A DNA stretch of 64,000 nt, from NCBI GenBank assembly GCA_965116815.1, contig OZ220722.1, forward strand, positions 2,293,941-2,357,940. Direction: 5' to 3'. The number at the start of each line of letters is the position of its first letter. Position 1 is the first letter of the stretch. Under the pieces are notes generated by a model. That model searched no databases. It saw only the letters and a program-made list of their open reading frames with translations, and had not been told where the DNA came from. This document shows, one piece after another, positions 12,692-48,861 of the stretch. Source of the DNA: Candidatus Poribacteria bacterium (GTDB lineage Bacteria > Poribacteria > WGA-4E > WGA-3G). Both the position numbers and the translations under genes were made by a program.

Positions 12692-13648
12692 ATGCAAAAT
12701 CCAATCATTGGACACCAACAAATTGTCGAACAACTCCAACGAACTGTCGCCTCGGATCGTATTGCTGGAGCATACCTTTTCTATGGACCGGAAGGTGTTG
12801 GCAAGGAAACGGTCGCTCGCTATTTTGCACAACTCATCCTTTGCGAACAAGAAACACAACCACCGACGGTGTGCGGAACGTGTCTCGCCTGTCGGAAGAT
12901 AGATTCAGGCAACCATCCTGACCTACAATTCATTCATCCTGAAGGGCGTCAGTTGAAGATCGGACAAATCCGAGAATTGCAGAAACAGATTATCTATGAG
13001 CCCCTTGAAGCGAGTCGAAAAATCTATATTTTGGCAGACACGGAACGGATGAACGCAGAGGCTGAGAACTGCCTGCTCAAGACACTGGAGGAGCCACCTG
13101 CAGCCTCAGTTTTAATTCTGCTTACATCAAACATCCAAGCATTGCTCCCTACGACCCGTTCTCGGTGCCAAATCCTCCAATTTCACCCAATGCCGACACA
13201 AGCGTTAGCAGAAATCTTGATGGATAAATTTTCGGTCGCGCCAGATCAAGCAACGACGCTTGCCATTGCGGCGGATGGCGCGATAGGAAAAGCACTCACG
13301 CAACTTGAAAAAGGCGAGGTACACACTGAAAGCGTTCCAGAAGTCCTCAAGGAGACAAATTTATTAGCCGCTTTCAGACTTGCTGAAGACTTCAAAGATA
13401 ATCCAGAGACTTTAAGTGAGCTGGTGACTTGGTATCGCGATCTTCTCTTTTTACAACAGGGCGCGCCCAGCGAACTCATAACACACTTTCACTTCCTTGA
13501 CGAACTCCGAGCGATTGTTCCCCGCTACTCTCGACTGCGCATACAGCAAGCCATCCAGACTATCTTTGACACCAAATCCCTCATCGAAAACACAAACACA
13601 AACGCTACCTTGGCTTTAGAGATAATGTGTTTGAAGTTACTCAAATAA
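12692..13648 (+). CDS. holB: DNA polymerase III delta-prime subunit
   Basis: AAA+ clamp-loader fold with the HAYLF.GP.G.GK motif and a Zn module CGTCLAC. The tmk-holB order is the conserved one. Confidence 0.8.
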   Translation: MQNPIIGHQQIVEQLQRTVASDRIAGAYLFYGPEGVGKETVARYFAQLILCEQETQPPTVCGTCLACRKIDSGNHPDLQFIHPEGRQLKIGQIRELQKQIIYEPLEASRKIYILADTERMNAEAENCLLKTLEEPPAASVLILLTSNIQALLPTTRSRCQILQFHPMPTQALAEILMDKFSVAPDQATTLAIAADGAIGKALTQLEKGEVHTESVPEVLKETNLLAAFRLAEDFKDNPETLSELVTWYRDLLFLQQGAPSELITHFHFLDELRAIVPRYSRLRIQQAIQTIFDTKSLIENTNTNATLALEIMCLKLLK

Positions 13649-13799: not shown

Positions 13800-15695
13800 A
13801 TGAGCGCATTTTACATCACCACACCCATCTACTACGTCAACGATGAACCGCATGCGGGACACGGTTATAGTACCATTGTCGCAGATACTTTGGCGCGCTA
13901 TCACCGCCTCAAAGGCGATGAGGTTTTCTTTTTGACCGGCGTTGATGAGCATGGTGCAAAGATACATAAAGCCGCTGAAGAAGCAGGACTTACCCCGCAA
14001 GATTATTGCGATAAAATAGCACCTACATTTATCAAATTTTGGAAACGGCTGAATATCTCGCACGACGTCTTCATGCGTACGACAAGCGATATGCACAAGC
14101 GCGGCGCAGCGAAATTCCTCACCGCCCTCTACGACAGTGGGGATGTCTACAAAGGGGCTTATAAAGGATACTATTGCCTCCCATGTGAGCGGTTTGTTCC
14201 TGAAAAAGAATTGACGGACGAAAAAATCTGCCCGATTCATAAATTGCCCCTGGAATGGCTCGAAGAGGAAAACTATTTCTTTAGACTCTCCAAGTATCAA
14301 GATCGCTTACTCGCGCATTTCCACGAGAATCCTGACTTTGTCTACCCCGCAGCCCGGCGCAATGAGCTCCTGAGCGTCCTCAACTCTGGATTGGAAGATA
14401 TAAGCATATCTCGCTCCTCTGTCTCATGGGGAATCTCTTTACCGTTTGATCCTGAGCATATCGTCTACGTCTGGATTGAAGCATTGATGAATTATATGAC
14501 AGCACTTGGTTATGAAACTGATAGTGAGCAGTATCGCACTTTTTGGCCCGCTGATGTCCACATGATGGGGAAGGACATCACCCGCTTCCATGCGCTGATC
14601 TGGCCCGCAATGTTGATGGCTGTAGACTTGCCACTACCCAAGCAGATTGTCGCACACGGGATGATGACGAAAGATGGCGAAGCGTTGAGTAAAACGCGAG
14701 GTATTTTCGTTGACCTGGATGCAGACATCGCGCAATACGGATTGGATGCGTTCCGCTATTACCTTCTGCGTGAATTTAGTTTCGGCAACGATGGTGATTA
14801 CCGCCCTGCCCGTTTGCACGCCCGCTACAACGCCGATCTCGCGAACGATCTCGGTAACCTGCTCAATCGTGTTCTCGGTTTAGTCAACAAGAACTTTGAA
14901 GGGATTCCCACGCCGACAACACCGGGGGAATTCGACGATGAAATCGAAGCGATCGCGCAGACCACTATTGATCAATTAGACGCGCATATAAGCGCGTTCG
15001 CGTTCGACGCTGCGTTGGAAACCATCTGGGAGTTTGTCCGGCGTATCAATCGGTATGTCCAACAGACACAGGTCTGGACGCTGGCAAAGCCGGAGACGAA
15101 ACCGAGAATGGGCACCATCCTTTACAATAGTTTGGAGGCATTACGGTTCATCTCTGTGCTCATATCGCCTTTTGTTCCAGATACTGCTGAGAAAATTCAG
15201 ACACAGATCGGTCTGCCGGAATTTGATACCGTTGCCGAATGGGGACATTTGCCCGCAGGACTAACGGTCAGCAGAGGCGAACCTATTTTCCCGCGCGTTG
15301 ATACTAAACAGCAGAAACAGCCGCAACCGAAAACGGAAGCCGAACCGAAACAGAAAAAGACAGAAAAAACAAGCACCCTTATCTCCTTTGCTGATTTCCA
15401 AAAGTTGGATCTTCGGGTGGCATGTATCCTCGCTGCTGAGTCAATTGAAGGGACTGACCGGCTTCTCAAATTGCAGGTTGACCTCGGCACAGAGAAACGA
15501 CAACTGATCGCTGGGATTGCCGAACACTATACGCCAGAGGCATTGATAGGGAAACAGGTGATAGTCGTCGTGAACTTAGAACCCGCCACCATTCGCGGCG
15601 TTGAGTCGCAAGGTATGGTTCTCGCGGGGAGTGGTGACTCCGTGGTTTTGGCAACTCTTGAAACAGAAATGCCGCTCGGCACACAAATAAAATAG
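13800..15695 (+). CDS. metG: methionine--tRNA ligase (with a C-terminal EMAP/Trbp111-like tRNA-binding domain)
   Basis: Class I HAGH (HIGH) motif and KMSKS-like KTRG. The C-terminal LDLRVACI...KLQVDLG is the OB-fold tRNA-binding domain. Confidence 0.92.
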   Translation: MSAFYITTPIYYVNDEPHAGHGYSTIVADTLARYHRLKGDEVFFLTGVDEHGAKIHKAAEEAGLTPQDYCDKIAPTFIKFWKRLNISHDVFMRTTSDMHKRGAAKFLTALYDSGDVYKGAYKGYYCLPCERFVPEKELTDEKICPIHKLPLEWLEEENYFFRLSKYQDRLLAHFHENPDFVYPAARRNELLSVLNSGLEDISISRSSVSWGISLPFDPEHIVYVWIEALMNYMTALGYETDSEQYRTFWPADVHMMGKDITRFHALIWPAMLMAVDLPLPKQIVAHGMMTKDGEALSKTRGIFVDLDADIAQYGLDAFRYYLLREFSFGNDGDYRPARLHARYNADLANDLGNLLNRVLGLVNKNFEGIPTPTTPGEFDDEIEAIAQTTIDQLDAHISAFAFDAALETIWEFVRRINRYVQQTQVWTLAKPETKPRMGTILYNSLEALRFISVLISPFVPDTAEKIQTQIGLPEFDTVAEWGHLPAGLTVSRGEPIFPRVDTKQQKQPQPKTEAEPKQKKTEKTSTLISFADFQKLDLRVACILAAESIEGTDRLLKLQVDLGTEKRQLIAGIAEHYTPEALIGKQVIVVVNLEPATIRGVESQGMVLAGSGDSVVLATLETEMPLGTQIK

Positions 15696-38748: not shown

Positions 38749-38764
38749 GATGTTCCTCCACGTT

Positions 38765-39802
38765 TCAACGCGCTAACTTCTGCTGTAGTTTTGGACTGTC
38801 TATAACATCGCGGTTAACAACATACGAAGGGATTTGACCAGCAGCCACATTGATGATACTTCGACAGGCACTCTTGGCGTTGCCTTCAAAACATTCGTCT
38901 GTCCAACAGATACTGTGCGGCGTAACGATTACATTGTCTAAGCTTAAGAGCGGGTCATCATCACGCATTGGTTCCTGCTCAAAGACATCGAGTCCTGCCC
39001 CTTGGATCCGTTTATTCTGGAGTGCCTCTGTGAGTGCCTTCTGATCAACGATTGGACCGCGTGCGGTGTTGATGAGGTAAGCCGTCGGTTTCATCAACCC
39101 GATACGCCTCGCATCAACAATCCCTCGCGTCTCTTCATTTAGCGGGCAGCAGACACATACAAAATCGGCGGTTTGCATTAAGGTGTCCAAATCGACCAGT
39201 TCTACATCAACTTCCGCCGCCTCAGCAGGTGTGACATACGGATCGTAAGTGATATGGCGCATCCCGAAAGGTTTCGCTAATTTAAATGCCTCTTTTCCAA
39301 TATTACCCATACCGACAAGTCCCAGCGTTCTGCCAATCAATCCCATTCCCCTATAGTTTTGTGTATTTCTCCAACCGCCAGCACGGGTGAGTCGATCCTT
39401 TATTAAGAGCATGTGGCTCAGCGACAAGACAAAGGTCATAATAGAGGTGGCAACGGGACGGCGAACACCATCAGGGGCAATTGTTAGCAGCACACCGTTT
39501 TCAGTACAGGCTTCCACGTCCACCTTATCATAACCGACACCGAATCGAGCGATGACAGACAGTTTGTCTGCTCCTGTGAATGTTTCTGCCGTAATACCCG
39601 TACCCAATACTAAGAGTGCATCGTAATCCTGAACCTGTGTTGCTTGTAATACCGGTGTATTTTCAGCAATATATTCCCATTGTAGACCGGCTCCATCAAA
39701 AAGTGGACCGGCAAAGTCATCTAAATCAGAGGTGCCATCGGGACCCAGAAAGTCCCGTGTGACACCTACACGAAATACGGATTTTTTCATATTATTCCTC
39801 AA
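38765..39802 (-). CDS. D-isomer-specific 2-hydroxyacid dehydrogenase (NAD-binding; PGDH/GyaR-like)
   Basis: GLVGMGNIGKEAFKLA Rossmann motif, with catalytic R/E/H in the PHS.CWTDE region. Confidence 0.8.
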   Translation of the reverse strand: MRNNMKKSVFRVGVTRDFLGPDGTSDLDDFAGPLFDGAGLQWEYIAENTPVLQATQVQDYDALLVLGTGITAETFTGADKLSVIARFGVGYDKVDVEACTENGVLLTIAPDGVRRPVATSIMTFVLSLSHMLLIKDRLTRAGGWRNTQNYRGMGLIGRTLGLVGMGNIGKEAFKLAKPFGMRHITYDPYVTPAEAAEVDVELVDLDTLMQTADFVCVCCPLNEETRGIVDARRIGLMKPTAYLINTARGPIVDQKALTEALQNKRIQGAGLDVFEQEPMRDDDPLLSLDNVIVTPHSICWTDECFEGNAKSACRSIINVAAGQIPSYVVNRDVIDSPKLQQKLAR

Positions 39803-41384
39803 TCCAAATCTGACGGAAGTACCTCCACTTCAACGGATGGAGTTTGAGATTCTTGACCTTTTTGTTAATCACTAAAATTTGTTTTGCGTGTGCTAAAGGG
39901 ACCCACGGTACATCTTTATGGAAAATTTGCTGTGCCTCTTGGTAGAGCGAAACCCGCTTTTCTCGATCCGAGATTGCTCTCGCCTGCTCTAAAACGTTTT
40001 GCATTTCATCACTTCGATAAAATGCGATATTTCCGGCGGGCTTCTCGGCTGACGATTTGCTTAAAAGAAAATAGAGGAAATTATCTGGGTCACCGAGGTC
40101 GGCACTCCATCCTAACATTGCCATATCGTGTTCACCGTGTTTCGTTTTCTCAAGATAGGTGCCCCAGTCGAAAGTCACGATTTTTGTTTCAATGCCAATA
40201 TTTCGGAGTTCGGATTGCAGTGCCTCTGCGAGTGCGCGTCCGTCAGGAATATAGGGACGCGGGACCGGCAATGCCCAGAGCGTTGTCTCAAAACCGTCGG
40301 GATATCCGGCTTCAGTGAGAAGTCGCTTCGCCAGTTCTGGATCATAAGTGTAATCCTCAATTGAATCGTCATAACTCCAGAGCGTCGGCGGAATCGGGTT
40401 CTTCGCGGGGATGCCCATTCCCTGATAGAGATGTTCAATAATCACGGATTTGTTAATGGCATGGTTAATCGCGAGTCGGACTTTGAGGTTATCGAAAGGT
40501 GGCTTGTCCATATTCATCGCAAGATAGCCGATACTCATACCGGGCTGTGCGATCAACTTAAGTGTCTCATCGTCTCGAATCTGTTCCAAATCGTCCGGAT
40601 TTGGGAACTCCATGGCATGGAGGCTTCCTTGCTGAAGTTCAATAAGCCTCACCGAGTTATCAGGAATAGAACGGAAGATGACTCTATCTAACATAGGTCG
40701 CCCATCCCAATAGTCATCGTTTGCCACAAGCACGATTTTATCTTTCCTGTCCCACTGCACAAACTTGAACGGACCGGTACCAACTGGGTTGTTGGAAAAC
40801 TCATCACCCCATTTCTGCGCTGCTGTTGGGCTAACAATGGAGAATGGGGTTATTGCAATCGTATAGATGAAAGGGGCATAAGCCGTTTTAAGGCGAATTT
40901 GGACGGTAAAGTCATCTACAGCGGTAATTTTATCGACAATCTCTGCCAAGCCTGTGGCTATCCAGTAAATGTAGCTGCCGCCAATTTTATGGAACGGATG
41001 TGTCTTATCGTGTTGTCGGTTAAGGGAGAAGAGGACGGCTTCGGCGTTGAAGGGGGTTCCGTCGTGGAAGGTTACGCCTTGCCGAAGGTGAAAGGTCCAC
41101 GTCAAACCGTCTTCCGAGTTCTCCCAATTTGTGGCGAGACCCGGCTCAAGTTCAGCACTCTCCTCTTTGTATTGAACGAGTGTATCGTAGATGTTATCGC
41201 AGACTTTGAAGGATTCCCCATCTTCCTCAAGGGCTGGGTCTAATCCGACCGAGTCACCACCGCGACCGAATATTAGGGTGCCGCCCTGCTTTGAATGCGA
41301 GTCGGCAAATACAGGGGAAAGCATGGCAATCGGTAGTATCAGGACAATGAGTAAGAAGACCTGTGTGGAAAGTTTGTTTTGCAT
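39792..41384 (-). CDS. ABC transporter substrate-binding protein, family 5 (peptide/nickel/opine type), orphan
   Basis: SBP_bac_5 pattern (GGTLIFG.GGDSVGLDPA...). Signal peptide. The start is set at MQNKLST. No permease or ATPase genes are adjacent. Confidence 0.75.
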   Translation of the reverse strand: MQNKLSTQVFLLIVLILPIAMLSPVFADSHSKQGGTLIFGRGGDSVGLDPALEEDGESFKVCDNIYDTLVQYKEESAELEPGLATNWENSEDGLTWTFHLRQGVTFHDGTPFNAEAVLFSLNRQHDKTHPFHKIGGSYIYWIATGLAEIVDKITAVDDFTVQIRLKTAYAPFIYTIAITPFSIVSPTAAQKWGDEFSNNPVGTGPFKFVQWDRKDKIVLVANDDYWDGRPMLDRVIFRSIPDNSVRLIELQQGSLHAMEFPNPDDLEQIRDDETLKLIAQPGMSIGYLAMNMDKPPFDNLKVRLAINHAINKSVIIEHLYQGMGIPAKNPIPPTLWSYDDSIEDYTYDPELAKRLLTEAGYPDGFETTLWALPVPRPYIPDGRALAEALQSELRNIGIETKIVTFDWGTYLEKTKHGEHDMAMLGWSADLGDPDNFLYFLLSKSSAEKPAGNIAFYRSDEMQNVLEQARAISDREKRVSLYQEAQQIFHKDVPWVPLAHAKQILVINKKVKNLKLHPLKWRYFRQIWIEE

Positions 41385-41679
41385 AATTTCTCCGATGTGT
41401 GTTGAAAAGATATATGCTCTATGATACAGACTTCTCTCGGAAATGTCAAGCGGTCTTTTTCTTAGCAAAAATGTCCGAGTTGCAGAAGGCAACGGAAAAA
41501 TGTTATAATCTTTGATGGGAGTCCCTTATATACTTCTCGTATAAATAGCAGTATTTTTTATAGTAAAGCTTCTGGTAATCACGAAGCCTTGTTAACTGGT
41601 GTGGCTGAGAAGTGAGGTTTCCAACCTCGCCAGCGTTGCACTATGCATGATTATACTAACATTTTTTTAGGAGGTTTTC

Positions 41680-42159
41680 ATGAAAACCGATAATAATGGC
41701 AATCAGTTACCGAAGGAGACAAAACTGGCGTACGCGTATTATAAACTGTACCGTGATATGCCGGCAGAGGAACGTTCTTTGCGGGTGCTATGTGAACGCG
41801 AAGTGAACGGTAAAAAAAGATCTATTTCGCTACTTGGGCGTTGGTCGAGTGAACACAATTGGCAAGAGCGAATTGCGGCTTATGACGCTGAAGCTGAGCG
41901 TGCGGCGTATCAAGAAAAATTAGCTCAGCGTCAGGCAGAGGTTGAGGCGTTTATAGACGAAGATATGGCGATCTCCATTAAATTCCAAAAGCTTTGTAAG
42001 ACGCGGCTTGAGGAATTGGACCAAGCCGGAAAGGATATGGATTGTAAAGAGTTGCGTCAATTGGCGTTGACGTATAAAGAATGTCGGGAGTGGCTAAAGA
42101 ACCTGATCGGGATTCTGGGGGAGGTAGAGGACGATGAAGCGGAAACGGCAGAAGATTAA
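41680..42159 (+). CDS. hypothetical protein (charged, helical; mobile-element-associated?)
   Basis: 159-aa ORF with a TATACT-type promoter upstream. Its 3' end overlaps the next ORF. Confidence 0.4.
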   Translation: MKTDNNGNQLPKETKLAYAYYKLYRDMPAEERSLRVLCEREVNGKKRSISLLGRWSSEHNWQERIAAYDAEAERAAYQEKLAQRQAEVEAFIDEDMAISIKFQKLCKTRLEELDQAGKDMDCKELRQLALTYKECREWLKNLIGILGEVEDDEAETAED

Positions 42160-43138
42160 TTTTCATGAGGTACGTTATCCGAAGCAGTTGAAATCAAAGG
42201 TAACTTTGATGTCTCCAGAACGACTTGGGGAATTGTATACAGAATGGGTCGATTTCGTTCGGCAGTTTACCCTGTGTGGTGGCGGCGAATGGTATATTGA
42301 TTTCTGTAATGACGAGTTTCGCGAATGGTTTGATAGTGAGGACTGTTGGTGGTCAAAGAAGGATAATATCCTCGCGTTTCGTCGGTGGTATGAAAAGAAC
42401 AAGGAGGTGTTGACATCTGCAGCATTTCAACACTATAAGGCGGAACAAGAAGCACAGAAAACAGCATTACATAAGCGGTTTTATTCCTTAGATCCTATCA
42501 AATACCATTATGAGGTTTCTCTTGGTTATATCGGTAGATGGTTGACTATTCTTGAGAGATGGTATAAAGAGGAGGCAGCGATATATAAACTGGCGCAGGC
42601 TTTGCTTTTGGAGGTTGCAATCACTGAATGCGTCTTTTTACGAGAGACAACATCTGTGCGGGGGAGTCAGGAATATAAAGAGTGGCTTCTGGTGGATGAG
42701 GCGAATGATCTGTTTCCACAGATGCGCAATAGAGGTCCACTGGACTGGAAATGGCAGGCATTGAAATCGAGTAATGATTGCTATCGGGGTGACATGGAAC
42801 AGGCAGGGTTGATTGTTTCGGTGATGCGCGCCCAGGTCTCCTCTGGAAATCTTGATGAAGAGGTTCTCGGTTTGATAGCGGCGGAGCATGCGCGGTTTTC
42901 ATCAAGTGATCTGGATTTTGAGTATCACCGGTCGTTAGCGATTGCGTCTTGTTTTTCTTCTGATTCTATTACAGTAAATCCATCGAGGTTGTTAGAAGGA
43001 ACAGAAAAATGTTTGCAAGCGTGGAATGTAAGAGATAGGAGCTCTGGATGGGATGCACTTGCGGTTCAAAAACAGGAAGAGTATCGGGCATTTTGGGAAA
43101 GGTGGAAGAACGTTCAAACAGAGCATGAGAATTTATAG
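42134..43138 (+). CDS. hypothetical protein (Trp/Cys-rich N-terminal region; unknown family)
   Basis: 334-aa ORF overlapping the upstream gene by about 26 nt (operon). Confidence 0.4.
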   Translation: MKRKRQKINFHEVRYPKQLKSKVTLMSPERLGELYTEWVDFVRQFTLCGGGEWYIDFCNDEFREWFDSEDCWWSKKDNILAFRRWYEKNKEVLTSAAFQHYKAEQEAQKTALHKRFYSLDPIKYHYEVSLGYIGRWLTILERWYKEEAAIYKLAQALLLEVAITECVFLRETTSVRGSQEYKEWLLVDEANDLFPQMRNRGPLDWKWQALKSSNDCYRGDMEQAGLIVSVMRAQVSSGNLDEEVLGLIAAEHARFSSSDLDFEYHRSLAIASCFSSDSITVNPSRLLEGTEKCLQAWNVRDRSSGWDALAVQKQEEYRAFWERWKNVQTEHENL

Positions 43139-43281
43139 TGTTGAAGGGGCATCAAGGTGCATTAGGTGGACATGTTTGTTGCCCGTTTCGTATGGACTGT
43201 CCAAGTTGTTTCTGTGAATCTTCAGTGTGCCTTTTGTTATTGTATAGGTTACGGAGAGTCCACGGCGTGTGCCTACTACTT

Positions 43282-43539
43282 TTAATAAGGATCCGTGATA
43301 GTCTCATTCACAGTCTCACGCCATGAGTCTTCAAATAGCATACGGAAAGACATTGTTTTGTTGTTGGTTGAAATGATCTCCATCGTGCCGTGTTGTGTAG
43401 CGTTTCGATATAATTTTTCTAACGATTTGATAAGTTTCTGTTTGTAGGTGGTGTCGGTGTTACCTTCGAGGTGTTGTCCTTTGGTCTCGAAACCAACGCC
43501 CTTCGTTTCATATCTGAATAATGATTTCCTCATGGTCAA
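43282..43539 (-). CDS. HicA-like toxin (YcfA family), probable
   Basis: The N-terminus RKSLFRYETKGVGFETKGQHL resembles E. coli HicA KQSEFRRWLESQGV..GSNHL. It overlaps the upstream HicB-like gene. Confidence 0.45.
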   Translation of the reverse strand: MTMRKSLFRYETKGVGFETKGQHLEGNTDTTYKQKLIKSLEKLYRNATQHGTMEIISTNNKTMSFRMLFEDSWRETVNETITDPY

Positions 43540-43729
43540 CTTTCGCAGCCTTGATAGCCTCTTTACTATTGTAATCTATCATTTCGAGAAGCATAATTCG
43601 TAGTGCTTCAAGCAATTCGTCCTTCGTCCGTTCTTGACCATTTACGCCGGGAATTTCCTGTATCCAACCCATCCACCAGCCTTCGTCCTGTTGGATAACA
43701 GCGGTATAAGTTTGTGTCAGCGGTTCCAT
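43508..43729 (-). CDS. HicB-like antitoxin (UPF0150 family)
   Basis: YTAVIQQDEGWWMGWIQEIPGVNGQERTKDELLEALR is the UPF0150/HicB N-domain signature. Confidence 0.55.
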   Translation of the reverse strand: MEPLTQTYTAVIQQDEGWWMGWIQEIPGVNGQERTKDELLEALRIMLLEMIDYNSKEAIKAAKVDHEEIIIQI

Positions 43730-43904
43730 CCTCCTTTAAGAGGGTACAACAACTTTAGACTTAAGAATCAAGCCACCCTTTTCATCTTTTATGAAATTTC
43801 CGTGTGTAGTCGGTGAGGAAGTCTTGTTTCTCTTGCCGTTTGATATCCTCACAGAGTGCGCGTAAATCGTACTGAAAAGAAGCAGCCCATTCGTCGCGAA
43901 TCTG

Positions 43905-44180
43905 GTGAATTTCCTCAATACCGACCAGTATCGTGGATACAATGAGATCGGTAAACAGATGAAGCACGAAACGATGAATCGAAGTGAGCAGTGGGAGCCC
44001 AATGGTATCCATACCAACACAATCGAAGGCTTCTGGTCTTTCGTCAAACGGGCGTGGTATGGATCACATCACCACTATTCAACAGGATACACGCCCTTGT
44101 ATCTCGCAGAGGCAGGCTATAAGTATAACTACCGAGAAACCAACATCTTTGAGAAGTTTCTCAAGCAAAGCATGCAGTGA
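43905..44180 (+). pseudogene. IS1595-family (ISXO2-like) transposase C-terminal fragment
   Basis: TDQYRGYNEIG...H..MN....W..NGIHTNTIEGFWSFVKR matches the IS1595 DDE C-terminal region. The upstream two-thirds are absent. Confidence 0.6.
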
Positions 44181-44320
44181 AGAACGGATACAAGTGGAAA
44201 CTCAAAAAGGAAAATTACAACTTTCTCAAGTCCAAAACGACTAATTCCGATAACGCAAGTTGCTACCTTTTTATGCATATAGCACTCCGCTGGAGTGCAA
44301 TCGCACAAATACGCTATTTT

Positions 44321-44530
44321 CTATAGATATATCACCCCGCTGGGGTGGGGAAAAGACAAAAAACCTTTCCGAAGTGGGCAAAATCTGTTAGTAGCAACTT
44401 GGATTAAATTATGACGATGTTTCCAAGAACGTCGCAAATCCAGAACAAGCATGTCTTCAAGGGTTTCCTTTTCAGGTATCCACTCGCCATTTTCAACACA
44501 GTTCGGTTCATAGAAGAATCCGTTTTTCAT
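44321..44530 (-). CDS. small hypothetical protein (good AAGGAG RBS; C-terminal part may be spurious)
   Basis: MKNGFFYEPNCVENGEWIPEKETLEDMLVLDL... behind a strong RBS. The ORF runs into a hairpin-rich region. Confidence 0.3.
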   Translation of the reverse strand: MKNGFFYEPNCVENGEWIPEKETLEDMLVLDLRRSWKHRHNLIQVATNRFCPLRKGFLSFPHPSGVIYL

Positions 44531-44750
44531 TAATCATACTCCTTGTAAAAAATGCCCGGTAGGTGCGGTTTTGCGGCGTACACGCCCAAATGCGACCTGC
44601 ATACTAACCGCACCGGATTTTAGACACAAACTTTGCATATCCCAAAATCTATTATTCAGATTCAGTAAGAGTATCCGATTCATCGGCATATCCCATAAAT
44701 TCTCGCATAAATGTATCGATTGTCTATTTTGTTAAGTTCAGAAATTAATC

Positions 44751-45620
44751 CTATTTCTTTGCCTCTGTTGTGAAATCAATGATGCGTATAACCCCCCAGT
44801 CGGCAGGTTCCCAATTCCGTGCCGCATCTGCCCATCGAAGTTGTACTCTATAGCGCTCTCCATGCCGTAACCAAAGGCCTTCACCCGGTAATCTCAAAAG
44901 GATTATACGCTTACCATCTATCAACATTGTCCATTTCATATCAATCTGGCGCGTGTTATTCCAGAGTTTCACGTTCGCGCTATCAATATCCTCGTCAAAG
45001 TCAAACACAAAACGTTCTGTGTCTTTAGGGACATTTATGTCCCCATGTCCGACACTACTTCTGATCATTTGGGGGGCTCTATTGTCTCCTTTCTTTGTTG
45101 TGAATGTAATTAGAATGGTGCGCTTATTTCCCTCAGTGTCTTCGACATCCCCGGATATTTCATATTGTCCGTCGGTTTTTAAATTAATCACGTTTCCAAG
45201 GGGTGTGAGAACAACTTTCTTGCCATTAACAATCCGTTTCCAACGAAGACTCTGTCTAAAGTTGTCGTGGTTTTTGTGGATTTGGATATTCGATTTTGCA
45301 ACATCTTCATCGAAAGTCAAGGTGATGCTATTCAAACGTATATGCACGTTTCTTTCACCGTCCGAGATGCTGCTTTCTACGAGTTTCGGACCAAAGATAT
45401 CAAAAACAGGTTCAGGTTCAGGTTCATCTACAATAGGTTCTATAATAGGAACTGCCGGATCTGGTTGTGGGACTAAAGGTTGGGATTGTGCTTCTGTATC
45501 AGGTTCCTCTATCACAACAGGTGTCGCAAAAATGCTTTGTGTGCCTTCGTGATCCCCGCTATCGACAGAACAGCCGATCACACAGGCAATGAGTATAGAC
45601 ATTAAGAGTGTTTTTATCAT
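44751..45620 (-). CDS. hypothetical lipoprotein (Ig-like/beta-rich?)
   Basis: Lipobox LIACVIGCS. The Pro/Glu-rich linker suggests a surface location. Confidence 0.45.
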   Translation of the reverse strand: MIKTLLMSILIACVIGCSVDSGDHEGTQSIFATPVVIEEPDTEAQSQPLVPQPDPAVPIIEPIVDEPEPEPVFDIFGPKLVESSISDGERNVHIRLNSITLTFDEDVAKSNIQIHKNHDNFRQSLRWKRIVNGKKVVLTPLGNVINLKTDGQYEISGDVEDTEGNKRTILITFTTKKGDNRAPQMIRSSVGHGDINVPKDTERFVFDFDEDIDSANVKLWNNTRQIDMKWTMLIDGKRIILLRLPGEGLWLRHGERYRVQLRWADAARNWEPADWGVIRIIDFTTEAKK

Positions 45621-45631
45621 CGTTTCCTCTG

Positions 45632-46309
45632 TTAGTGAAAATTGAGCGCAATGTTATAGACAATCTCAGAACTCTCGAAAGAGAATTCAATAGCACCGAT
45701 GAGTGTGATTGTCGGGGACATCTCTATTTCAATTCCGGCTTCTCCAGAGAATAGGTTAGCTGTGTCATCAATAAGAAGCTCACGAGTGGTTGATACGTTA
45801 CGCCAGATATTTGAATAGAAGACACCAAAATAAGGTCTGAGAAAGTTGTTAGGTTCATGTATGATACCGAGACCACCTGCGAGTATCGCATTTACTGAAT
45901 GCTGTGGTAGTCCGCTGCTATGGATTTGGTGATAGTGTGCCCGAAGCCCAGCTCTAAAAAAGTATTGTAATGTTGGCATGTTTCCTAATGGTCCTATGTG
46001 GGTCAATCGTAGTTCAGCAGACGGTGATGGTGGTATATCTAACGGTTCTTTACTGTCAATATGGATGAACCCGACGCTTGGGATTAGTGATACCATTGAA
46101 CTGTGCGTAAAAGCATAATCAAGGCTTATTCTGATGGTTTCTGCTCTAAAAACTTGGTTTTCGCGCCTGCGTTTTGGGAATTCGTAACGCTGTAATCCCA
46201 ATCCGAGTGCCCCTTTTCCTTCAGGTAATGCCTTTAAACGTGTCTGGGCTTCTGATGCCGGTATTAAGAAAAAGATAAAAATTAGGGTGAATATGCAATA
46301 TTTTATCAT
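45632..46309 (-). CDS. putative outer-membrane beta-barrel protein
   Basis: Signal peptide, alternating amphipathic strands and a C-terminal aromatic residue (..NFH). Confidence 0.4.
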   Translation of the reverse strand: MIKYCIFTLIFIFFLIPASEAQTRLKALPEGKGALGLGLQRYEFPKRRRENQVFRAETIRISLDYAFTHSSMVSLIPSVGFIHIDSKEPLDIPPSPSAELRLTHIGPLGNMPTLQYFFRAGLRAHYHQIHSSGLPQHSVNAILAGGLGIIHEPNNFLRPYFGVFYSNIWRNVSTTRELLIDDTANLFSGEAGIEIEMSPTITLIGAIEFSFESSEIVYNIALNFH

Positions 46310-46632
46310 TCAATTATCATCCTTTGGCATTTGGTATTCCTCTTAAAAAAGTGCAAAAGTGCAAAGTGGTGGACAGGGTATCCACGTCTTTGTGTTAGGT
46401 TAGTTCCAATACATACTCTCTTCTTTTTGTCGACGGAAAATTTCACTTGGATATGCCGCTGAATTTCAGAAGATGTAACATATCGTGTTTTCGGGACAGG
46501 TGATGTTTTGGGGCGTGATGGATTTCCTAATGGTTCCGGAAAATATTTAGAATCATTAGGTTTACCGCTCGCGTCCAGAATATCCTCTTGATATGATACA
46601 TAACCCATGAAAATCCCCCTTGCCGAGTTCAA
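46306..46632 (-). CDS. hypothetical protein
   Basis: 108-aa ORF whose start overlaps the OMP-like gene's stop. Confidence 0.3.
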   Translation of the reverse strand: MNSARGIFMGYVSYQEDILDASGKPNDSKYFPEPLGNPSRPKTSPVPKTRYVTSSEIQRHIQVKFSVDKKKRVCIGTNLTQRRGYPVHHFALLHFFKRNTKCQRMIIE

Positions 46633-46824
46633 ATTGAATTCGGATCAATAACAAACTGAAGGTTTGACCACTTTCTGTTTTCGATAGTCTATTTGGATTT
46701 ACCAGTCCAGTCCTTTATCCCCCTACCATGGTGGAAAGGTGGCAAAACGGAGAGAGTCTCCGATTCATGGTAGTGCCACCTTAGAACTGGTTACAATACT
46801 ATGACGTGAGTTCAACTTAAAAGT

Positions 46825-47421
46825 TTAGAGAACATCATACGTAGGAGCGTTCTCTCCACTGTACTTCAGATTAGCACCTTTTTTGTACCACCCGACATCG
46901 TCTTCGAGCCAATCATCAATTTCATCATCATGTAAAGGCACTTCACGTAAAAGTGCAGATCTAGCAACTTTCTCATAAACGAGCACGCTCTCATGCGTAG
47001 TGGTGAAACCTCGATTGTCACGACTTCCTTTTAGATTAAGAACTGCTGCAAGGCATACAATAAACGTATCAGCCCCAAATATTTCGTCCATGATCATTCG
47101 CAAATGATGCTGTTCGTGATGGTCAATAGAAACGAAAATAACGCCATCATCGGAAAGCAATTCGCGCAGCAAATGCAGGCGCGGCCACATCATGCAAAGC
47201 CATTTGTCATGGAGTTCAAGGTCTTCACCATCAACCGGACTGTTTTGAGCAAACCACGCTTGCATCAGCGGGCTATTCACTCGGTCATTGTACACCCAAG
47301 CCTGACTGCCTGTATTATATGGCGGATCAATGTAGATGCACTTGATCTTGCCAGCGTATTTTGGGAGAAGTGCCTTTAGTGCATGTAGGTTGTCGCCGTG
47401 GATAATGAGGTTATCATTCAA
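46825..47421 (-). pseudogene. N6-adenine/N4-cytosine DNA methyltransferase fragment (Type III Mod / beta-class-like), C-terminally truncated
   Basis: DNLHALKAL...IKCIYIDPPYNTG (motif IV DPPY) and HESVLVYEK. It stops after 198 aa, with no TRD or motif I. It begins with TTG directly after a poly-C tract. Confidence 0.7.
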
Positions 47422-47433
47422 CGGAGATTTTTC

Positions 47434-47446
47434 GGGGGGGGGGGGG
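47434..47446. repeat. homopolymeric G13 tract (C13 on the coding strand), 12 nt 5' of the Mod fragment start
   Basis: Seen directly in the sequence (ttcGGGGGGGGGGGGGtaaac). An upstream ATG at about 47546 would read through it into the Mod frame with 12 or 15 Cs rather than 13. Confidence 0.8.
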
Positions 47447-47563
47447 TAAACACGAATTAAGTGATTTTTCTGTGTCTATCTGTAGGGTGCGGACGGGGAC
47501 GGTGAGGTGGTGTCCGTATATGAATTGTTTGCCTTTGAAGTCGAGCGTGGGCATAGAGACTCC

Positions 47564-48412
47564 TTAAAAAATCTTATTCATATCAACAGGAAAACCTGCA
47601 TTTTTGATTTCTTGACCGAGTTTCAATTTCCAGTCTCCGCTATCCATAGGCACGTAGATTACGCCATCAATATCTGAGGGTTTCTCTATTTTTCCTTTGA
47701 AGAGCGGACATACTCGTTCACGACCCAGTTTTCCCATGAAATAACCGAGTTCAAAAACAACGTTCTGACGGGCTCTCGGTTTGCTTTCGTTCTCAATTTT
47801 ATCTTTTAAGGCACCAATATCGTCAGGTGTGAGTAGAACGATTGCAAATCCTGCATTACCGGCGTATTTTTCAAGCTTCTCAATGATCGTTAGTCCACTA
47901 CTGGGCTATTCGTGAAGGATAGTTACCTTTAAGCCCAATCTCTCTACAAACCTCGCAACGGTTTCTTTAACCCCATCATCGCGTCCGTGTACGATGAATA
48001 CTTCGTTACCCGAGATGAGCGGAAATGTGTCTGATGATTCATCGTACAGTTCAAGTTGATCCTGAATTCCCATTAGGTAATTGATATCCCTGTCTACATT
48101 TTCTCTGTATCTAATCAAATCCTTTGAAAACTCGACTCTTTCCTCCCTATTTGGAGACGAAACTATTCCCATAGGGTAAAAAATGCAGGCTCTTTCGTAT
48201 TCTTCTGCAACTAACGTCCCATCAAATAGGTGCAACAAAAGGTTTTTATTATGCCGTGACCAGTTTCCATGATCATTTCGAGCACGACTATATTCATCTC
48301 GTGCATCAATTTGTCTATCGCGGAGTTGTTGCCCTTTATCAATTTGCTCTTGTATTTTCTTCTCGGTTCCCTCTCTACTCACAAGCAATTTTGGAAGCGT
48401 TTTATCTTTCAT
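47564..48412 (-). pseudogene. TIR-like (COG4271/DUF2321-type, Cap12/PycTIR-like) protein with a novel ~130-aa N-terminal domain, interrupted by one in-frame TAG
   Basis: The ORF-track piece 47906-48412 ends ...[31 protein letters not shown]. The same frame continues [29 protein letters not shown]...RARQNVVFELGYFMGKLGRERV... to a TAA at about 47564. The paralog has CAG (Q) where this gene has TAG. Confidence 0.6.
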
Positions 48413-48861
48413 AGTTTCTCCTCAATAGGCAGTCCAGCGTTTTGCATGCCTTGACTGAGTTTCAGTTTCCAATCATCTGCACCATCCATGGGTACATAGA
48501 CTACGTTAGGAATATATGATGGTAATTCAACACCTTCTTTGTAGAGGATACACACTCGTTTATCGCCTAACCCCCCGAGGAGATAACCGAGCTCAAAGAT
48601 AACGTTTTGGCGGGCCCTAGGTTTCCGTTGTCCTGTAGCTTTTGAGGACCCAACATCGTCCGGTGTCAACAAGACAATTGCGAAACCCGCTTCATCTGCC
48701 TGTTCTTCAAACTTATCAATGATTGTTCGTCCCTTACTGGGTTGTTCGTCAAGAACGGTTGGCTTTAAACCCAACGTCTCTACAAATTTGGAGACGGCTG
48801 TTTTGGCTTCATCATCATGCCCATGGGCGATAAACACTTTCGATTGAGTTTTCACATTCAT
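48409..48861 (-). CDS. stand-alone TIR-like domain protein (COG4271/DUF2321-type)
   Basis: [20 protein letters not shown]...[18 protein letters not shown]...[10 protein letters not shown]...[32 protein letters not shown]. Its stop overlaps the next gene's ATG (ATGA). Confidence 0.65.

What the first reader, a model, noticed from the sequence alone, without database searches (positions are those of the whole stretch)
41493..44530. Small mobile-type cargo patch: two overlapping unknown genes, a HicB/HicA-like TA pair and an IS1595 transposase remnant
41680-42159 and 42134-43138 overlap by 26 nt, have their own TATACT-type promoter, and have no recognisable domains. Downstream on the opposite strand sit a 73-aa UPF0150/HicB-like gene overlapping an 85-aa HicA-like gene (N-terminus like E. 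coli HicA). Then comes the C-terminal third of an IS1595 (ISXO2-like) transposase, then a hairpin-rich spacer. Together this looks like the residue of an integrated element. The two unknown genes are candidates for a novel two-component accessory function (defence, plasmid maintenance, etc.).
Basis: partly seen in the sequence, partly recalled or inferred. Interest (0 to 1): 0.5.

Follow-up and report, generated by a model that had tools for sequence, protein, structure and literature searches.

The report
Domesticated small-terminase operon beside wrecked R-M
The two "unknown" genes are a sponge-symbiont-specific operon built from a phage small-terminase gene plus a novel fast-evolving partner, and the rest of the "patch" is debris from a destroyed Type III restriction system, not one integrated element.

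Summary
All ORFs exist at the stated coordinates, but the interpretation needs revision. The window comes from a Candidatus Poribacteria chromosome.

**The two "unknowns"**
- ORF1 (41680-42159) is a homologue of phage small terminase (TerS, phrog_6299). On viral contigs its relatives are followed by TerL.
- ORF2 (42134-43138) is a near-orphan, all-alpha protein.
- In 22 of 24 Poribacteria loci, the TerS-like gene is followed by an overlapping partner of about 300 aa. Partner bodies fall into several unrelated classes. All share one N-terminal motif (basic stretch, then F-x3-RYP), placed 4 nt after the ORF1 stop.
- The pair occurs in 1-3 copies per genome and was not found on viral contigs.
- It is under purifying selection but evolves fast. 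It often sits at the edge of variable defence loci (R-M, CRISPR arrays, TIR/ThsB, ApeA).

**The rest of the patch**
- The "HicA-like" 85-aa ORF is a chimera: seven hicA codons fused at 43491 to the last 69 codons of a Type III res gene.
- The hicB-like gene is an orphan.
- The IS1595 fragment is real.
- A close relative has intact res-mod here. In the window, 3.6 kb of mosaic DNA replaced it.

**Verdict**
The pair is a new variant of a known kind. Its function is unknown. Phage or DNA conflict is the most likely role, and that is an inference.

The parts
41680..42159 (+). ORF1: chromosomal TerS-like (phage small-terminase homologue) protein, 159 aa. It has an N-terminal HTH-like domain, a long helical hairpin and a disordered acidic tail.
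   Evidence: phrog_6299 E 2.5e-15. A profile search gave 6258 relatives, and the distant ones hit phrog_6299 at about 1e-30. Viral relatives are followed by TerL in 8/10 cases. Relatives are annotated terS in cyanophages PSS2 and CL131. AF2 pLDDT 84. dN/dS 0.15-0.22.
42134..43138 (+). ORF2: 'RYP-partner', 334 aa, predicted all-alpha, class A body. The N-terminal docking-type motif KRKRQKINFHEVRYPK sits at 42137-42184.
41493..41679 (+). Upstream intergenic region with the conserved RBS TTTTAGGAGGTTTTCATG and a -10-like TGATTATACT.
   Evidence: Comparison of upstream regions in 22 loci. No consensus sigma-70 hit. No Rfam family or tRNA. The fold is not unusually stable (z -0.24).
43143..43281 (.). 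About 140 nt of extra sequence between the ORF2 stop and the res stop, absent in relative L004.
   Evidence: blastn of window vs L004. Not repeated elsewhere in the held sequences.
43285..43491 (-). Remnant of Type III restriction subunit res: the last 69 codons only.
   Evidence: PADLOC REase_III E 1.2e-11, profile 819-878/883. tblastn of L004 Res aa 808-876 gives 83% identity. blastn 86% to L004 8883-9092.
43491..43512 (-). First 7 codons of hicA (MKRRALV), ending at the breakpoint with res at about 43491.
   Evidence: Three-way DNA alignment with the L017 hicBA locus and the L004 res gene. L017 encodes a full 63-aa HicA here.
43508..43729 (-). Orphan hicB-like (UPF0150 fold) gene, 73 aa, with no DNA-binding domain.
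   Evidence: Pfam UPF0150 E 0.012, PHROG HicB-like E 0.033, PDB 1wv8 E 0.02. 92% nt identity to L017 2980-3230. The 90%-identity cluster has 11 member sequences; one member, P0199, was read on 14 Poribacteria-type contigs.
43905..44180 (+). IS1595-family transposase remnant (C-terminal third of the DDE domain).
   Evidence: Pfam PF12762 E 3.9e-16, NCBIfam NF033547 E 4.5e-16. tblastn hits to annotated IS1595 transposases.
44181..44750 (.). Spacer with two related hairpins (44283-44299 and 44333-44347) and a singleton 69-aa ORF (44321-44530, -).
   Evidence: Fold z -2.1. The pattern CYCCGCTGGRG occurs twice against 0.06 expected. The ORF's cluster has a single member.
44751..46309 (-). Imported cassette: a Big_5 Ig-like lipoprotein (44751-45620) and an OMP beta-barrel-like protein (45632-46309).
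   Evidence: Pfam Big_5 E 2.9e-12, OMP_b-brl E 4e-4. 93% identical to L066, which has a different upstream context.
46825..47554 (-). Truncated Type III mod: a leader ORF (47414-47554), a poly-C13 tract (about 47434-47446) and the N-terminal 198 aa (46825-47421). The TRD and C-terminal half are missing.
   Evidence: PADLOC MTase_III E 9e-70, profile 38-219/542. tblastn finds only Mod aa 1-96 of the relatives. The poly-C tract is conserved in L004 (C13) and L008 (C10).

Best explanation
**What the region is (shown).** The 3-kb "patch" has two unrelated histories.

1. ORF1-ORF2 is a Poribacteria-specific, translationally coupled two-gene operon that descends from the terS-terL junction of a tailed phage. 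ORF1 keeps the small-terminase architecture: an HTH DNA-binding head, a helical oligomerisation hairpin and an acidic tail. The large-terminase gene has been replaced by a lineage-specific, fast-evolving all-alpha partner. Partner bodies come in several unrelated classes. All start with the same peptide (basic stretch, then phi-(N/E)-F-x3-R-Y-P), located exactly behind the ORF1 stop codon.

2. Everything downstream (43139-47554) is the wreck of a convergent Type III res-mod system with a poly-C tract in mod. About 3.6 kb of its interior was replaced by a mosaic: hicB plus 7 codons of hicA, an IS1595 fragment, and a lipoprotein/OMP cassette.

**How it most likely works (inferred).**
- ORF1 probably forms a DNA-binding oligomer, as TerS proteins do.
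- It probably recruits the partner through the conserved N-terminal peptide, in the place where a phage TerS would engage TerL.
- The module then probably acts in phage or DNA conflict. One possibility is a TerS decoy or sensor that interferes with terminase assembly or packaging of infecting phages, with the variable partner as the effector or specificity part.

I put about 0.35 on the anti-phage/conflict role. I put about 0.85 on the structural and evolutionary description.
For: TerS homology:
- phrog_6299 E 2.5e-15.
- The exhaustive profile search gave 6258 relatives, and all 10 sampled members hit phrog_6299, the more distant ones down to about 1e-33.
- The downstream gene is TerL in 8/10 viral contigs. 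In the annotated phages CL131, PSS2 and MSTV1 the matched gene is annotated small terminase and the next gene large terminase.
- The ORF1 model (pLDDT 84) shows an HTH-like head, long helices and a disordered acidic tail.

Chromosomal clade:
- All 24 loci found in GTDB species genomes are Poribacteria, with 1-3 copies per genome.
- 22/24 have an overlapping 192-343-aa partner (20 of them 283-343 aa) carrying the motif.
- The motif occurs 31 times at that junction and nowhere else meaningful in about 1 Mb x 6 frames.
- The ORF1 stop lies 4 nt before the Phe codon in 18/21 distinct junctions.
- Classes A and B share only the N-terminal 38 columns.
- P0057 (396 aa) has an ORF1-like N-terminal half followed by an unrelated C-terminal part that begins KRVDFSDVR. 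It is a possible natural fusion with a third body class, not verified.
- Partners were not found on viral contigs.

Real genes that evolve fast: dN/dS is 0.22 and 0.40, against 0.04-0.05 for the neighbours.

Defence-border position:
- L010 and L011 share the pair and the downstream RNR gene but have different upstream cargo: Type ISP/ApeA/pP_pnuc in one, TIR/ThsB in the other.
- CRISPR arrays end 400-1300 nt upstream of the pair in L035, L040, L042 and L044.
- Type III R-M lies downstream in the window, L004 and L008.
- Type IIG, DUF1156 and methyltransferase genes are neighbours elsewhere.

R-M wreck and hicA truncation.
Against: - No experiment and no recognisable effector domain supports an anti-phage role.
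- Neither gene hits any PADLOC model.
- Only about half of the independent contexts have defence neighbours. No background rate was measured, and sponge symbionts are defence-rich in general (PMC5649159).
- Several contexts are purely housekeeping (L002, L028, L034, L045, L046).
- The ORF2 model has low confidence (pLDDT 55), so "all-alpha" is tentative.
- Binding of the partner peptide to ORF1 is inferred from position and conservation only.
Confidence: 0.6

Rival explanations
1. Cryptic prophage remnant. ORF1 is simply the last surviving terS of a decayed prophage, and ORF2 is a decayed or unrelated phage gene. Neither has a present function.
For: ORF1 is a clear TerS homologue, and its closest viral relatives reach 44% identity. 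The neighbourhood is full of gene debris.
Against: The pair is intact in 22/24 loci across many Poribacteria species, with a rigidly conserved junction. Both genes are under purifying selection (dN/dS 0.15-0.48). No TerL or other phage domain appeared among the neighbours annotated with Pfam; no PHROG scan of neighbours was run. Partner classes were not found in 2.9 million viral contigs.
Confidence: 0.07
2. Regulatory module. An HTH DNA-binding protein plus a sensor or co-factor controls adjacent variable genes or a DNA-damage response, by analogy with the BrxR/CapW and CapH-CapP regulators that flank many different defence systems (analogy recalled from memory, not checked here).
For: ORF1 has an HTH-like head. 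The pair is a constant element beside variable defence cargo. DNA-damage genes recur nearby: DnaE2, UvrB, LexA and GIY-YIG/UVR.
Against: The pair usually lies downstream of, or convergent to, the defence genes rather than upstream or divergent. Half of the contexts have no defence genes. No conserved operator-like repeat was seen upstream. A regulator would not be expected to swap its partner's whole body between unrelated classes.
Confidence: 0.2
3. Mobilisation anchor. The terS-like gene carries or recognises a pac-type site, so that a helper phage terminase packages the adjacent chromosome. This would be lateral-transduction-like transfer of defence islands, or a minimal phage satellite.
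For: pac sites normally lie within terS (general phage knowledge). Lateral transduction is reported to mobilise defence islands next to phage or PICI pac sites (PMC12829572). The same pair is found beside different cargo and in different flanks.
Against: No integrase, replication or other satellite genes occur beside the pair. The variable side is mostly upstream of ORF1, whereas packaging usually proceeds downstream from terS. No helper phage is identified, and the CRISPR spacers next to the pair do not match the held viral loci. The model does not explain the conserved non-TerL partner.
Confidence: 0.12
4. Lineage-specific housekeeping DNA-organising or repair factor. A domesticated TerS would be used as a nucleoid or repair protein in Poribacteria, with no link to phage conflict.
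For: The pair was found in every locus-bearing Poribacteria species genome recovered, and some contexts are conserved and housekeeping, next to UvrB, DnaE2, RNR or ThiE.
Against: Copy number (1-3) and position vary. The partner evolves fast and swaps its body between classes. These are unusual traits for housekeeping genes. Truncated copies exist (L039, L047).
Confidence: 0.15

Closest known systems
Phage small terminase subunit (TerS), PHROG family phrog_6299 (for example cyanophage PSS2 TerS and Aphanizomenon phage CL131 gp058)
   Same: ORF1 shares significant sequence homology, size (about 160-190 aa), an N-terminal HTH-like head, a helical hairpin and a flexible C-terminal tail. It also overlaps the downstream gene.
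   Different: The downstream gene is not TerL, and no portal or capsid genes are present. The gene is chromosomal, multi-copy and restricted to Poribacteria. Its closest viral relative is only 44% identical.
Satellite-encoded packaging hijackers: PICI/SaPI TerS homologues and Rpp, which binds phage TerS (Fillol-Salom et al. 2019, PMC6739421)
   Same: Both are non-phage genes that derive from, or target, the small terminase, and both can block phage packaging. This gives a conceptual model for a TerS decoy.
   Different: No integrase, repressor, replication or att features of a satellite lie beside the pair. There is no sequence similarity to any PADLOC or Pfam family. The interference itself is untested.
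HicAB type II toxin-antitoxin system
   Same: The 73-aa gene is orthologous (92% nt identity) to the hicB-like gene that overlaps a 63-aa HicA in relatives, in antitoxin-first order.
   Different: In the window hicA is cut after 7 codons and fused to res. The HicB-like protein is only the UPF0150 fold, with no DNA-binding domain, and scores below the Pfam cut-off.
Type III restriction-modification with a candidate phase-variable mod
   Same: The res 3' end and the mod 5' end are clearly homologous to the res and mod genes of relatives, which are much more complete. A poly-C tract in the mod 5' region is conserved in three genomes.
   Different: Only 69 codons of res and about 200 codons of mod remain. 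The system is dead in this genome.
IS1595 (ISXO2-like) insertion sequences
   Same: The C-terminal third of the DDE_Tnp_IS1595 domain is present.
   Different: The N-terminal two thirds are missing, and no terminal inverted repeats or target duplications were found.

Membership tests
Phage small terminase (TerS, phrog_6299) | Significant sequence similarity to the family profile | tested here: met
   E 2.5e-15 over profile 11-146/193. Relatives score down to 1e-33.
Phage small terminase (TerS, phrog_6299) | N-terminal HTH DNA-binding domain plus helical oligomerisation core | tested here: inconclusive
Phage small terminase (TerS, phrog_6299) | Encoded next to a large terminase within a virion-morphogenesis module | tested here: not met
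   The downstream gene has no Terminase domain or Walker A motif. No phage genes appear in any of about 20 chromosomal contexts. Viral relatives do have TerL.
Phage small terminase (TerS, phrog_6299) | Binds a pac/cos site and activates TerL for packaging | not testable with these tools
   Needs biochemistry.
HicAB toxin-antitoxin | HicA toxin gene (PF07927, about 60 aa, dsRBD-like) | tested here: not met
   Only codons 1-7 remain, and the rest is replaced by the res 3' end. The 85-aa ORF has no Pfam HicA hit.
HicAB toxin-antitoxin | HicB antitoxin with an N-terminal HicB/UPF0150 fold | tested here: inconclusive
   Pfam UPF0150 E 0.012 (15.9 bits against a cut-off of 27.3), PDB 1wv8 E 0.02. 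Orthology to the gene preceding hicA in L017 supports the assignment.
HicAB toxin-antitoxin | HicB C-terminal DNA-binding (RHH/HTH) domain for autoregulation | tested here: not met
   The protein is 73 aa, the same size as the single-domain UPF0150 protein TTHA1013 (1wv8, 73 aa), and no DNA-binding domain was detected.
IS1595 insertion sequence | Complete DDE transposase with N-terminal Zn-ribbon/HTH | tested here: not met
   Only profile positions 80-153/153 (Pfam) and 138-215/215 (NCBIfam) are present.
IS1595 insertion sequence | Terminal inverted repeats and target-site duplication | tested here: not met
   No convincing inverted or direct repeats flank the fragment.
Type III restriction-modification | Res subunit with SF2 helicase motifs and a PD-(D/E)xK nuclease | tested here: not met
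   Only aa 808-876 of an 876-aa relative are present.
Type III restriction-modification | Full-length Mod (motifs IV and I plus a target-recognition domain) | tested here: not met
   198 aa matching profile 38-219/542, split from its leader at a poly-C tract.
Known anti-phage defence systems (PADLOC-DB v2) | A match of either gene to any defence-system protein model | tested here: not met
   No hit at E <= 1 for ORF1 and ORF2, nor at E <= 0.1 for 10 partner proteins of other classes.
Phage satellites (PICI/SaPI/PICMI-like) | Integrase, regulatory, replication and att features around the terS homologue | tested here: not met
   None of these domains occurs beside the pair in the Pfam-annotated contexts.

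The most novel reading that the evidence does not exclude
The TerS-like protein and its "RYP-partner" form a previously undescribed, modular anti-phage system. A domesticated small terminase acts as decoy or sensor for incoming phage packaging machinery. Interchangeable partner bodies, docked through a universal N-terminal F-x3-RYP peptide that takes the place of TerL, act as effectors. This would be a new principle: immunity built from the terS-terL interface.
Probability: 0.25. Interest if true: 0.8.

Novelty: new variant of a known kind. Interest (0 to 1): 0.55.

Why it matters
- If the pair acts in phage conflict, it would be a defence or interference module built by exapting the phage terS-terL interface. 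It would also show a "one docking peptide, many bodies" design that can be tested directly.
- Even without a known function, this is a clear case of phage packaging genes domesticated in an uncultured, defence-rich symbiont phylum.
- It gives a sequence signature (TerS-like gene, stop codon, then F-x3-RYP) for finding more examples.
- The R-M wreck, the cut hicA and the poly-C mod are ordinary genome decay. They correct an annotation trap: the chimeric "HicA-like" ORF.

Tried and rejected
- **HicA remnant upstream of hicB (43730-43960, - strand):** Pfam on two reading frames found nothing. The real hicA lies downstream of hicB and is truncated.
- **ORF2 as a diverged TerL:** rejected. It has no Terminase or ATPase domain, is predicted all-alpha and has no Walker A motif.
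- **ORF2 N-terminal peptide as a relic of the TerL N-terminus:** the TerL N-termini of CL131, PSS2 and MSTV1 show no convincing F-x3-RYP motif.
- **PDB profile searches** for ORF1, ORF2 class A and class B found nothing.
- **Direct tblastn of ORF1 against GenBank phages** gave no match. A distant family member had to be used as a bridge.
- **First genome-contig scan with ORF2** confirmed nothing.
- **Repeats, att sites or terminal inverted repeats bounding the patch:** only short chance-level matches. The 140-nt insert and the other junk segments are not repeated.
- **Upstream ~70-nt element and spacer hairpins:** no Rfam family, no tRNA and no unusual stability for the upstream element.
- **CRISPR spacers beside the pair, compared with the held viral loci:** no matches.
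- **Domain search of 10 partner proteins from other classes:** nothing in Pfam or PADLOC.


Full report
**1. Observation**

The 26-nt overlap of 41680-42159 and 42134-43138 is also correct. The IS1595 remnant is solid. Pfam DDE_Tnp_IS1595 gives E 3.9e-16 over profile positions 80-153/153, NCBIfam NF033547 covers 138-215/215, and tblastn hits annotated IS1595 transposases.

Two statements are wrong:
- ORF1 is not domain-less. It hits PHROG phrog_6299 "terminase small subunit" at E 2.5e-15.
- The 85-aa "HicA-like" ORF is not HicA. Its residues 17-77 match the extreme C-terminus (819-878/883) of a Type III restriction enzyme (PADLOC, E 1.2e-11).

**2. Source and synteny**

ORF1 is identical to a protein on a 5.85-Mb contig. 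Close relatives of ORF1 and ORF2 are named Candidatus Poribacteria bacterium, a sponge symbiont phylum.

A related contig, L004, is about 90% identical to the window from 38758 to 43142. That stretch covers the dehydrogenase, the SBP_bac_5 gene, ORF1 and ORF2. L004 then continues directly into an 876-aa Type III res gene and a mod gene, convergent to ORF2. The mod gene is called there only from an internal start (448 aa).

In the window, only three things remain of this R-M system:
- the last 69 codons of res (43285-43491);
- a 198-aa N-terminal piece of mod (46825-47421);
- the mod leader ORF (47414-47554).

The 3,585 bp in between in L004 are replaced by 3,584 bp of unrelated DNA (43491-47075).

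**3. The hicBA remnant**

The 73-aa ORF is weakly UPF0150/HicB-like (Pfam E 0.012, below cut-off; PDB 1wv8 E 0.02). Near-identical genes of about 70 aa occur on many Poribacteria-type contigs. In the loci where the flank is visible (L017, L018) they lie downstream of an RNR gene.

In L017, an ATG overlapping the hicB stop opens a 63-aa ORF that reads as a typical HicA by inspection (MKRRALVRHLRKHSCYFIREGGRHS...VPRHNEIG...). No family search was run on it.

The window shares this DNA (92% identity) only between 43741 and 43491. A three-way alignment shows the window following hicB-hicA through codon 7 of hicA and then switching to the res 3' end. The 85-aa ORF is therefore a chimeric artefact. 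The toxin is gone, and hicB is an orphan.

**4. The rest of the filler**

- An IS1595 C-terminal fragment lies at 43905-44180.
- A spacer follows, with two related hairpins. The pattern occurs twice against 0.06 expected, and the fold z-score is -2.1. No Rfam family matches.
- A Big_5 lipoprotein gene and an OMP-like gene come next. Window 45078-46285, which spans most of the OMP-like gene and the first part of the lipoprotein gene, is 93% identical to a contig from another strain. There the upstream context is different.
- No bounding repeats were found.

This is a mosaic of independent pieces, not one element.

**5. ORF1 is a TerS homologue**

- An exhaustive profile search of 1.84 billion cluster representatives found 6,258 relatives at E <= 1e-3, 502 of them at E <= 1e-10. 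All 10 sampled members hit phrog_6299, the more distant ones more strongly, down to about 1e-33.
- In GenBank phages, relatives are annotated terS and are followed by terL. Examples are Aphanizomenon phage CL131, cyanophage PSS2 and M. smithii tailed virus 1.
- On IMG/VR contigs, the gene after the ORF1-like gene is TerL in 8 of 10 cases. It is a ParB-methylase in the closest relative, which is 44% identical.
- The AF2 model (pLDDT 84) shows an HTH-like head (residues 15-58), a 55-residue helix, a return helix and a disordered acidic tail.

**6. ORF2 and the partner family**

ORF2 has only 8-13 related clusters among 5.8 billion. It has no domain hit anywhere. Its model is poor and all-helical (pLDDT 55), with no meaningful structural neighbour.

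A scan of one genome per GTDB species with the ORF1 alignment returned 24 loci. All are Poribacteria, with 1-3 copies per genome. Findings across these loci:
- In 22 of 24, the TerS-like gene is followed by an overlapping ORF of 192-343 aa, 283-343 aa in 20 of them.
- These partners fall into several mutually unrelated body classes: A as in the window, A', B and others.
- Profile-profile comparison of classes A and B aligns only the first 38 columns (probability 96.7%).
- All partners begin with a basic stretch followed by phi-(N/E)-F-x3-R-Y-P.
- This motif occurs 31 times at exactly this junction, plus twice by chance elsewhere, in about 1 Mb x 6 frames.
- In 18 of 21 distinct junctions, the ORF1 stop codon starts exactly 4 nt before the Phe codon. 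The basic stretch is therefore dual-coded with ORF1's acidic tail. The F-x3-RYP part lies outside the overlap, so it is conserved at the protein level.
- P0057 (396 aa) has an ORF1-like N-terminal half followed by an unrelated C-terminal part that begins KRVDFSDVR. It may be a natural fusion with a third body class.
- Partner classes A and B were not found in 2.9 million viral contigs.

**7. Selection**

Between the window and L004, dN/dS is 0.04-0.05 for the PhyH and SBP genes, 0.22 for ORF1 and 0.40 for ORF2. Against L008 the values are 0.15 for ORF1 and 0.48 for ORF2. Both are real genes, and both evolve far faster than their neighbours.

**8. Neighbourhood**

- L010 and L011 share the pair (98% identity from 190 nt upstream) and the same downstream RNR gene. 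Their upstream cargo is entirely different: Type ISP R-M, pP_pnuc, ApeA-HEPN and DUF2806 in one, TIR_2, ThsB-TIR and Nmad2 in the other.
- In L035, L040, L042 and L044, a CRISPR array of 46-107 repeats ends 400-1300 nt upstream of the pair. In L040 the order is cas6, cas4-cas1, cas2, array, pair, then housekeeping genes.
- Type III R-M lies downstream in the window, L004 and L008.
- Type IIG, DUF1156 and methyltransferase genes occur in L033, L030 and L029.
- Other contexts are housekeeping, with recurrent DNA-damage genes: DnaE2, UvrB, LexA and GIY-YIG/UVR.
- Many loci share the downstream flank but not the upstream one.
- Overall, about half of roughly 22 independent contexts border defence genes. 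I did not measure a background rate, and sponge symbionts are defence-rich in general (PMC5649159).

**9. Interpretation**

Shown:
- ORF1-ORF2 is a Poribacteria-specific operon derived from a phage terS gene.
- The terL position is occupied by a novel, modular partner family.
- The rest of the patch is a gutted Type III R-M system filled with unrelated fragments.

Inferred:
- ORF1 oligomerises and binds DNA like TerS.
- The conserved N-terminal peptide docks the partner onto ORF1, as TerL would dock.
- The module acts in phage or DNA conflict, for example by packaging interference. Satellites provide a precedent (Rpp binding phage TerS, PMC6739421).

Rivals are a regulator of adjacent genes, a pac-type mobilisation anchor (compare lateral transduction of defence islands, PMC12829572), a housekeeping DNA factor, and a dead prophage remnant. 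The last is largely excluded by conservation and selection.

**10. Verdict**

The pair is a new variant of a known kind (an exapted small terminase with a novel partner). Interest is moderate. The remainder is ordinary decay.

Noticed in passing
window 47414-47554 and about 47434-47446 (- strand); L004 about 12900-13160; L008 about 13950-14230: The 5' end of the Type III mod gene carries a homopolymeric C tract (C13 in the window, C13 in L004, C10 in L008). In all three genomes the reading frame is split at the tract. This is the hallmark of a phase-variable mod (a 'phasevarion'), although homopolymer sequencing error cannot be excluded.
   Followed up: partly
window 47564-48861 (- strand): A cluster of CAP12/Pycsar-type TIR genes: one complete TIR-domain ORF (48409-48861) and a PDC-S35-like gene broken into pieces (47906-48412 and 47564-47737). 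This suggests the whole 43-49 kb stretch is a decaying defence island.
   Followed up: partly
L035 824-8731, L040 3331-9047, L042 5976-9408, L044 4503-9598: Large CRISPR arrays (46-107 repeats) with the 37-nt repeat GGATCAAAGAGAAGAATCTCGAGTCCGAGATTGAAAC lie directly upstream of TerS-like/partner pairs. cas6, a cas4-cas1 fusion and cas2 sit upstream in L040. No spacers are shared between the four arrays, and none matches the held viral loci.
   Followed up: partly
L017 3210-3401: A complete 63-aa HicA gene that overlaps the stop of the hicB-like gene was not called by the gene caller in the source assembly. HicBA pairs of this type may be systematically under-annotated in Poribacteria.
   Followed up: partly
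window 43491-47075 vs L004 9092-12677: The segment that replaced res-mod is 3,584 bp and the segment it replaced is 3,585 bp. This may be coincidence, or a hint of replacement by homologous recombination at both conserved gene ends with an allele that then decayed. The window's mod diverges from L004 at the DNA level after 47075 but stays Mod-like at the protein level to about 46880.
   Followed up: no
L010 9324-9830 and 9896-10205; L011 4972-5537: Tandem repeats of about 62-63 nt and 94 nt lie between the pair and the downstream RNR gene, with copy number differing between strains.
   Followed up: no
window 44283-44299 and 44333-44347: Two related perfect hairpins (GCACTCCGCTGGAGTGC and CACCCCGCTGGGGTG) lie 50 nt apart, enclosed by a 16-nt inverted repeat (44251-44266 and 44391-44406). 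The core pattern is unique in the window. This could be a small non-autonomous element or the end of an IS.
   Followed up: partly
L039 and L047 (OZ244616.1, OZ250160.1); L001 and L025: Some ORF1-like copies are truncated. In L039, the ORF found after the truncated copy reads like a transposase by eye (not scanned). In L001 and L025, ORF1 appears interrupted before the partner. The module itself therefore also decays in some genomes.
   Followed up: no
L004 13193-17893: A type IV CRISPR-Cas gene (Csf3), followed by three genes of 155-755 aa with no Pfam hit, lies immediately beyond the Type III R-M in the syntenic relative. In the window the corresponding position holds the TIR genes instead.
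   Followed up: no
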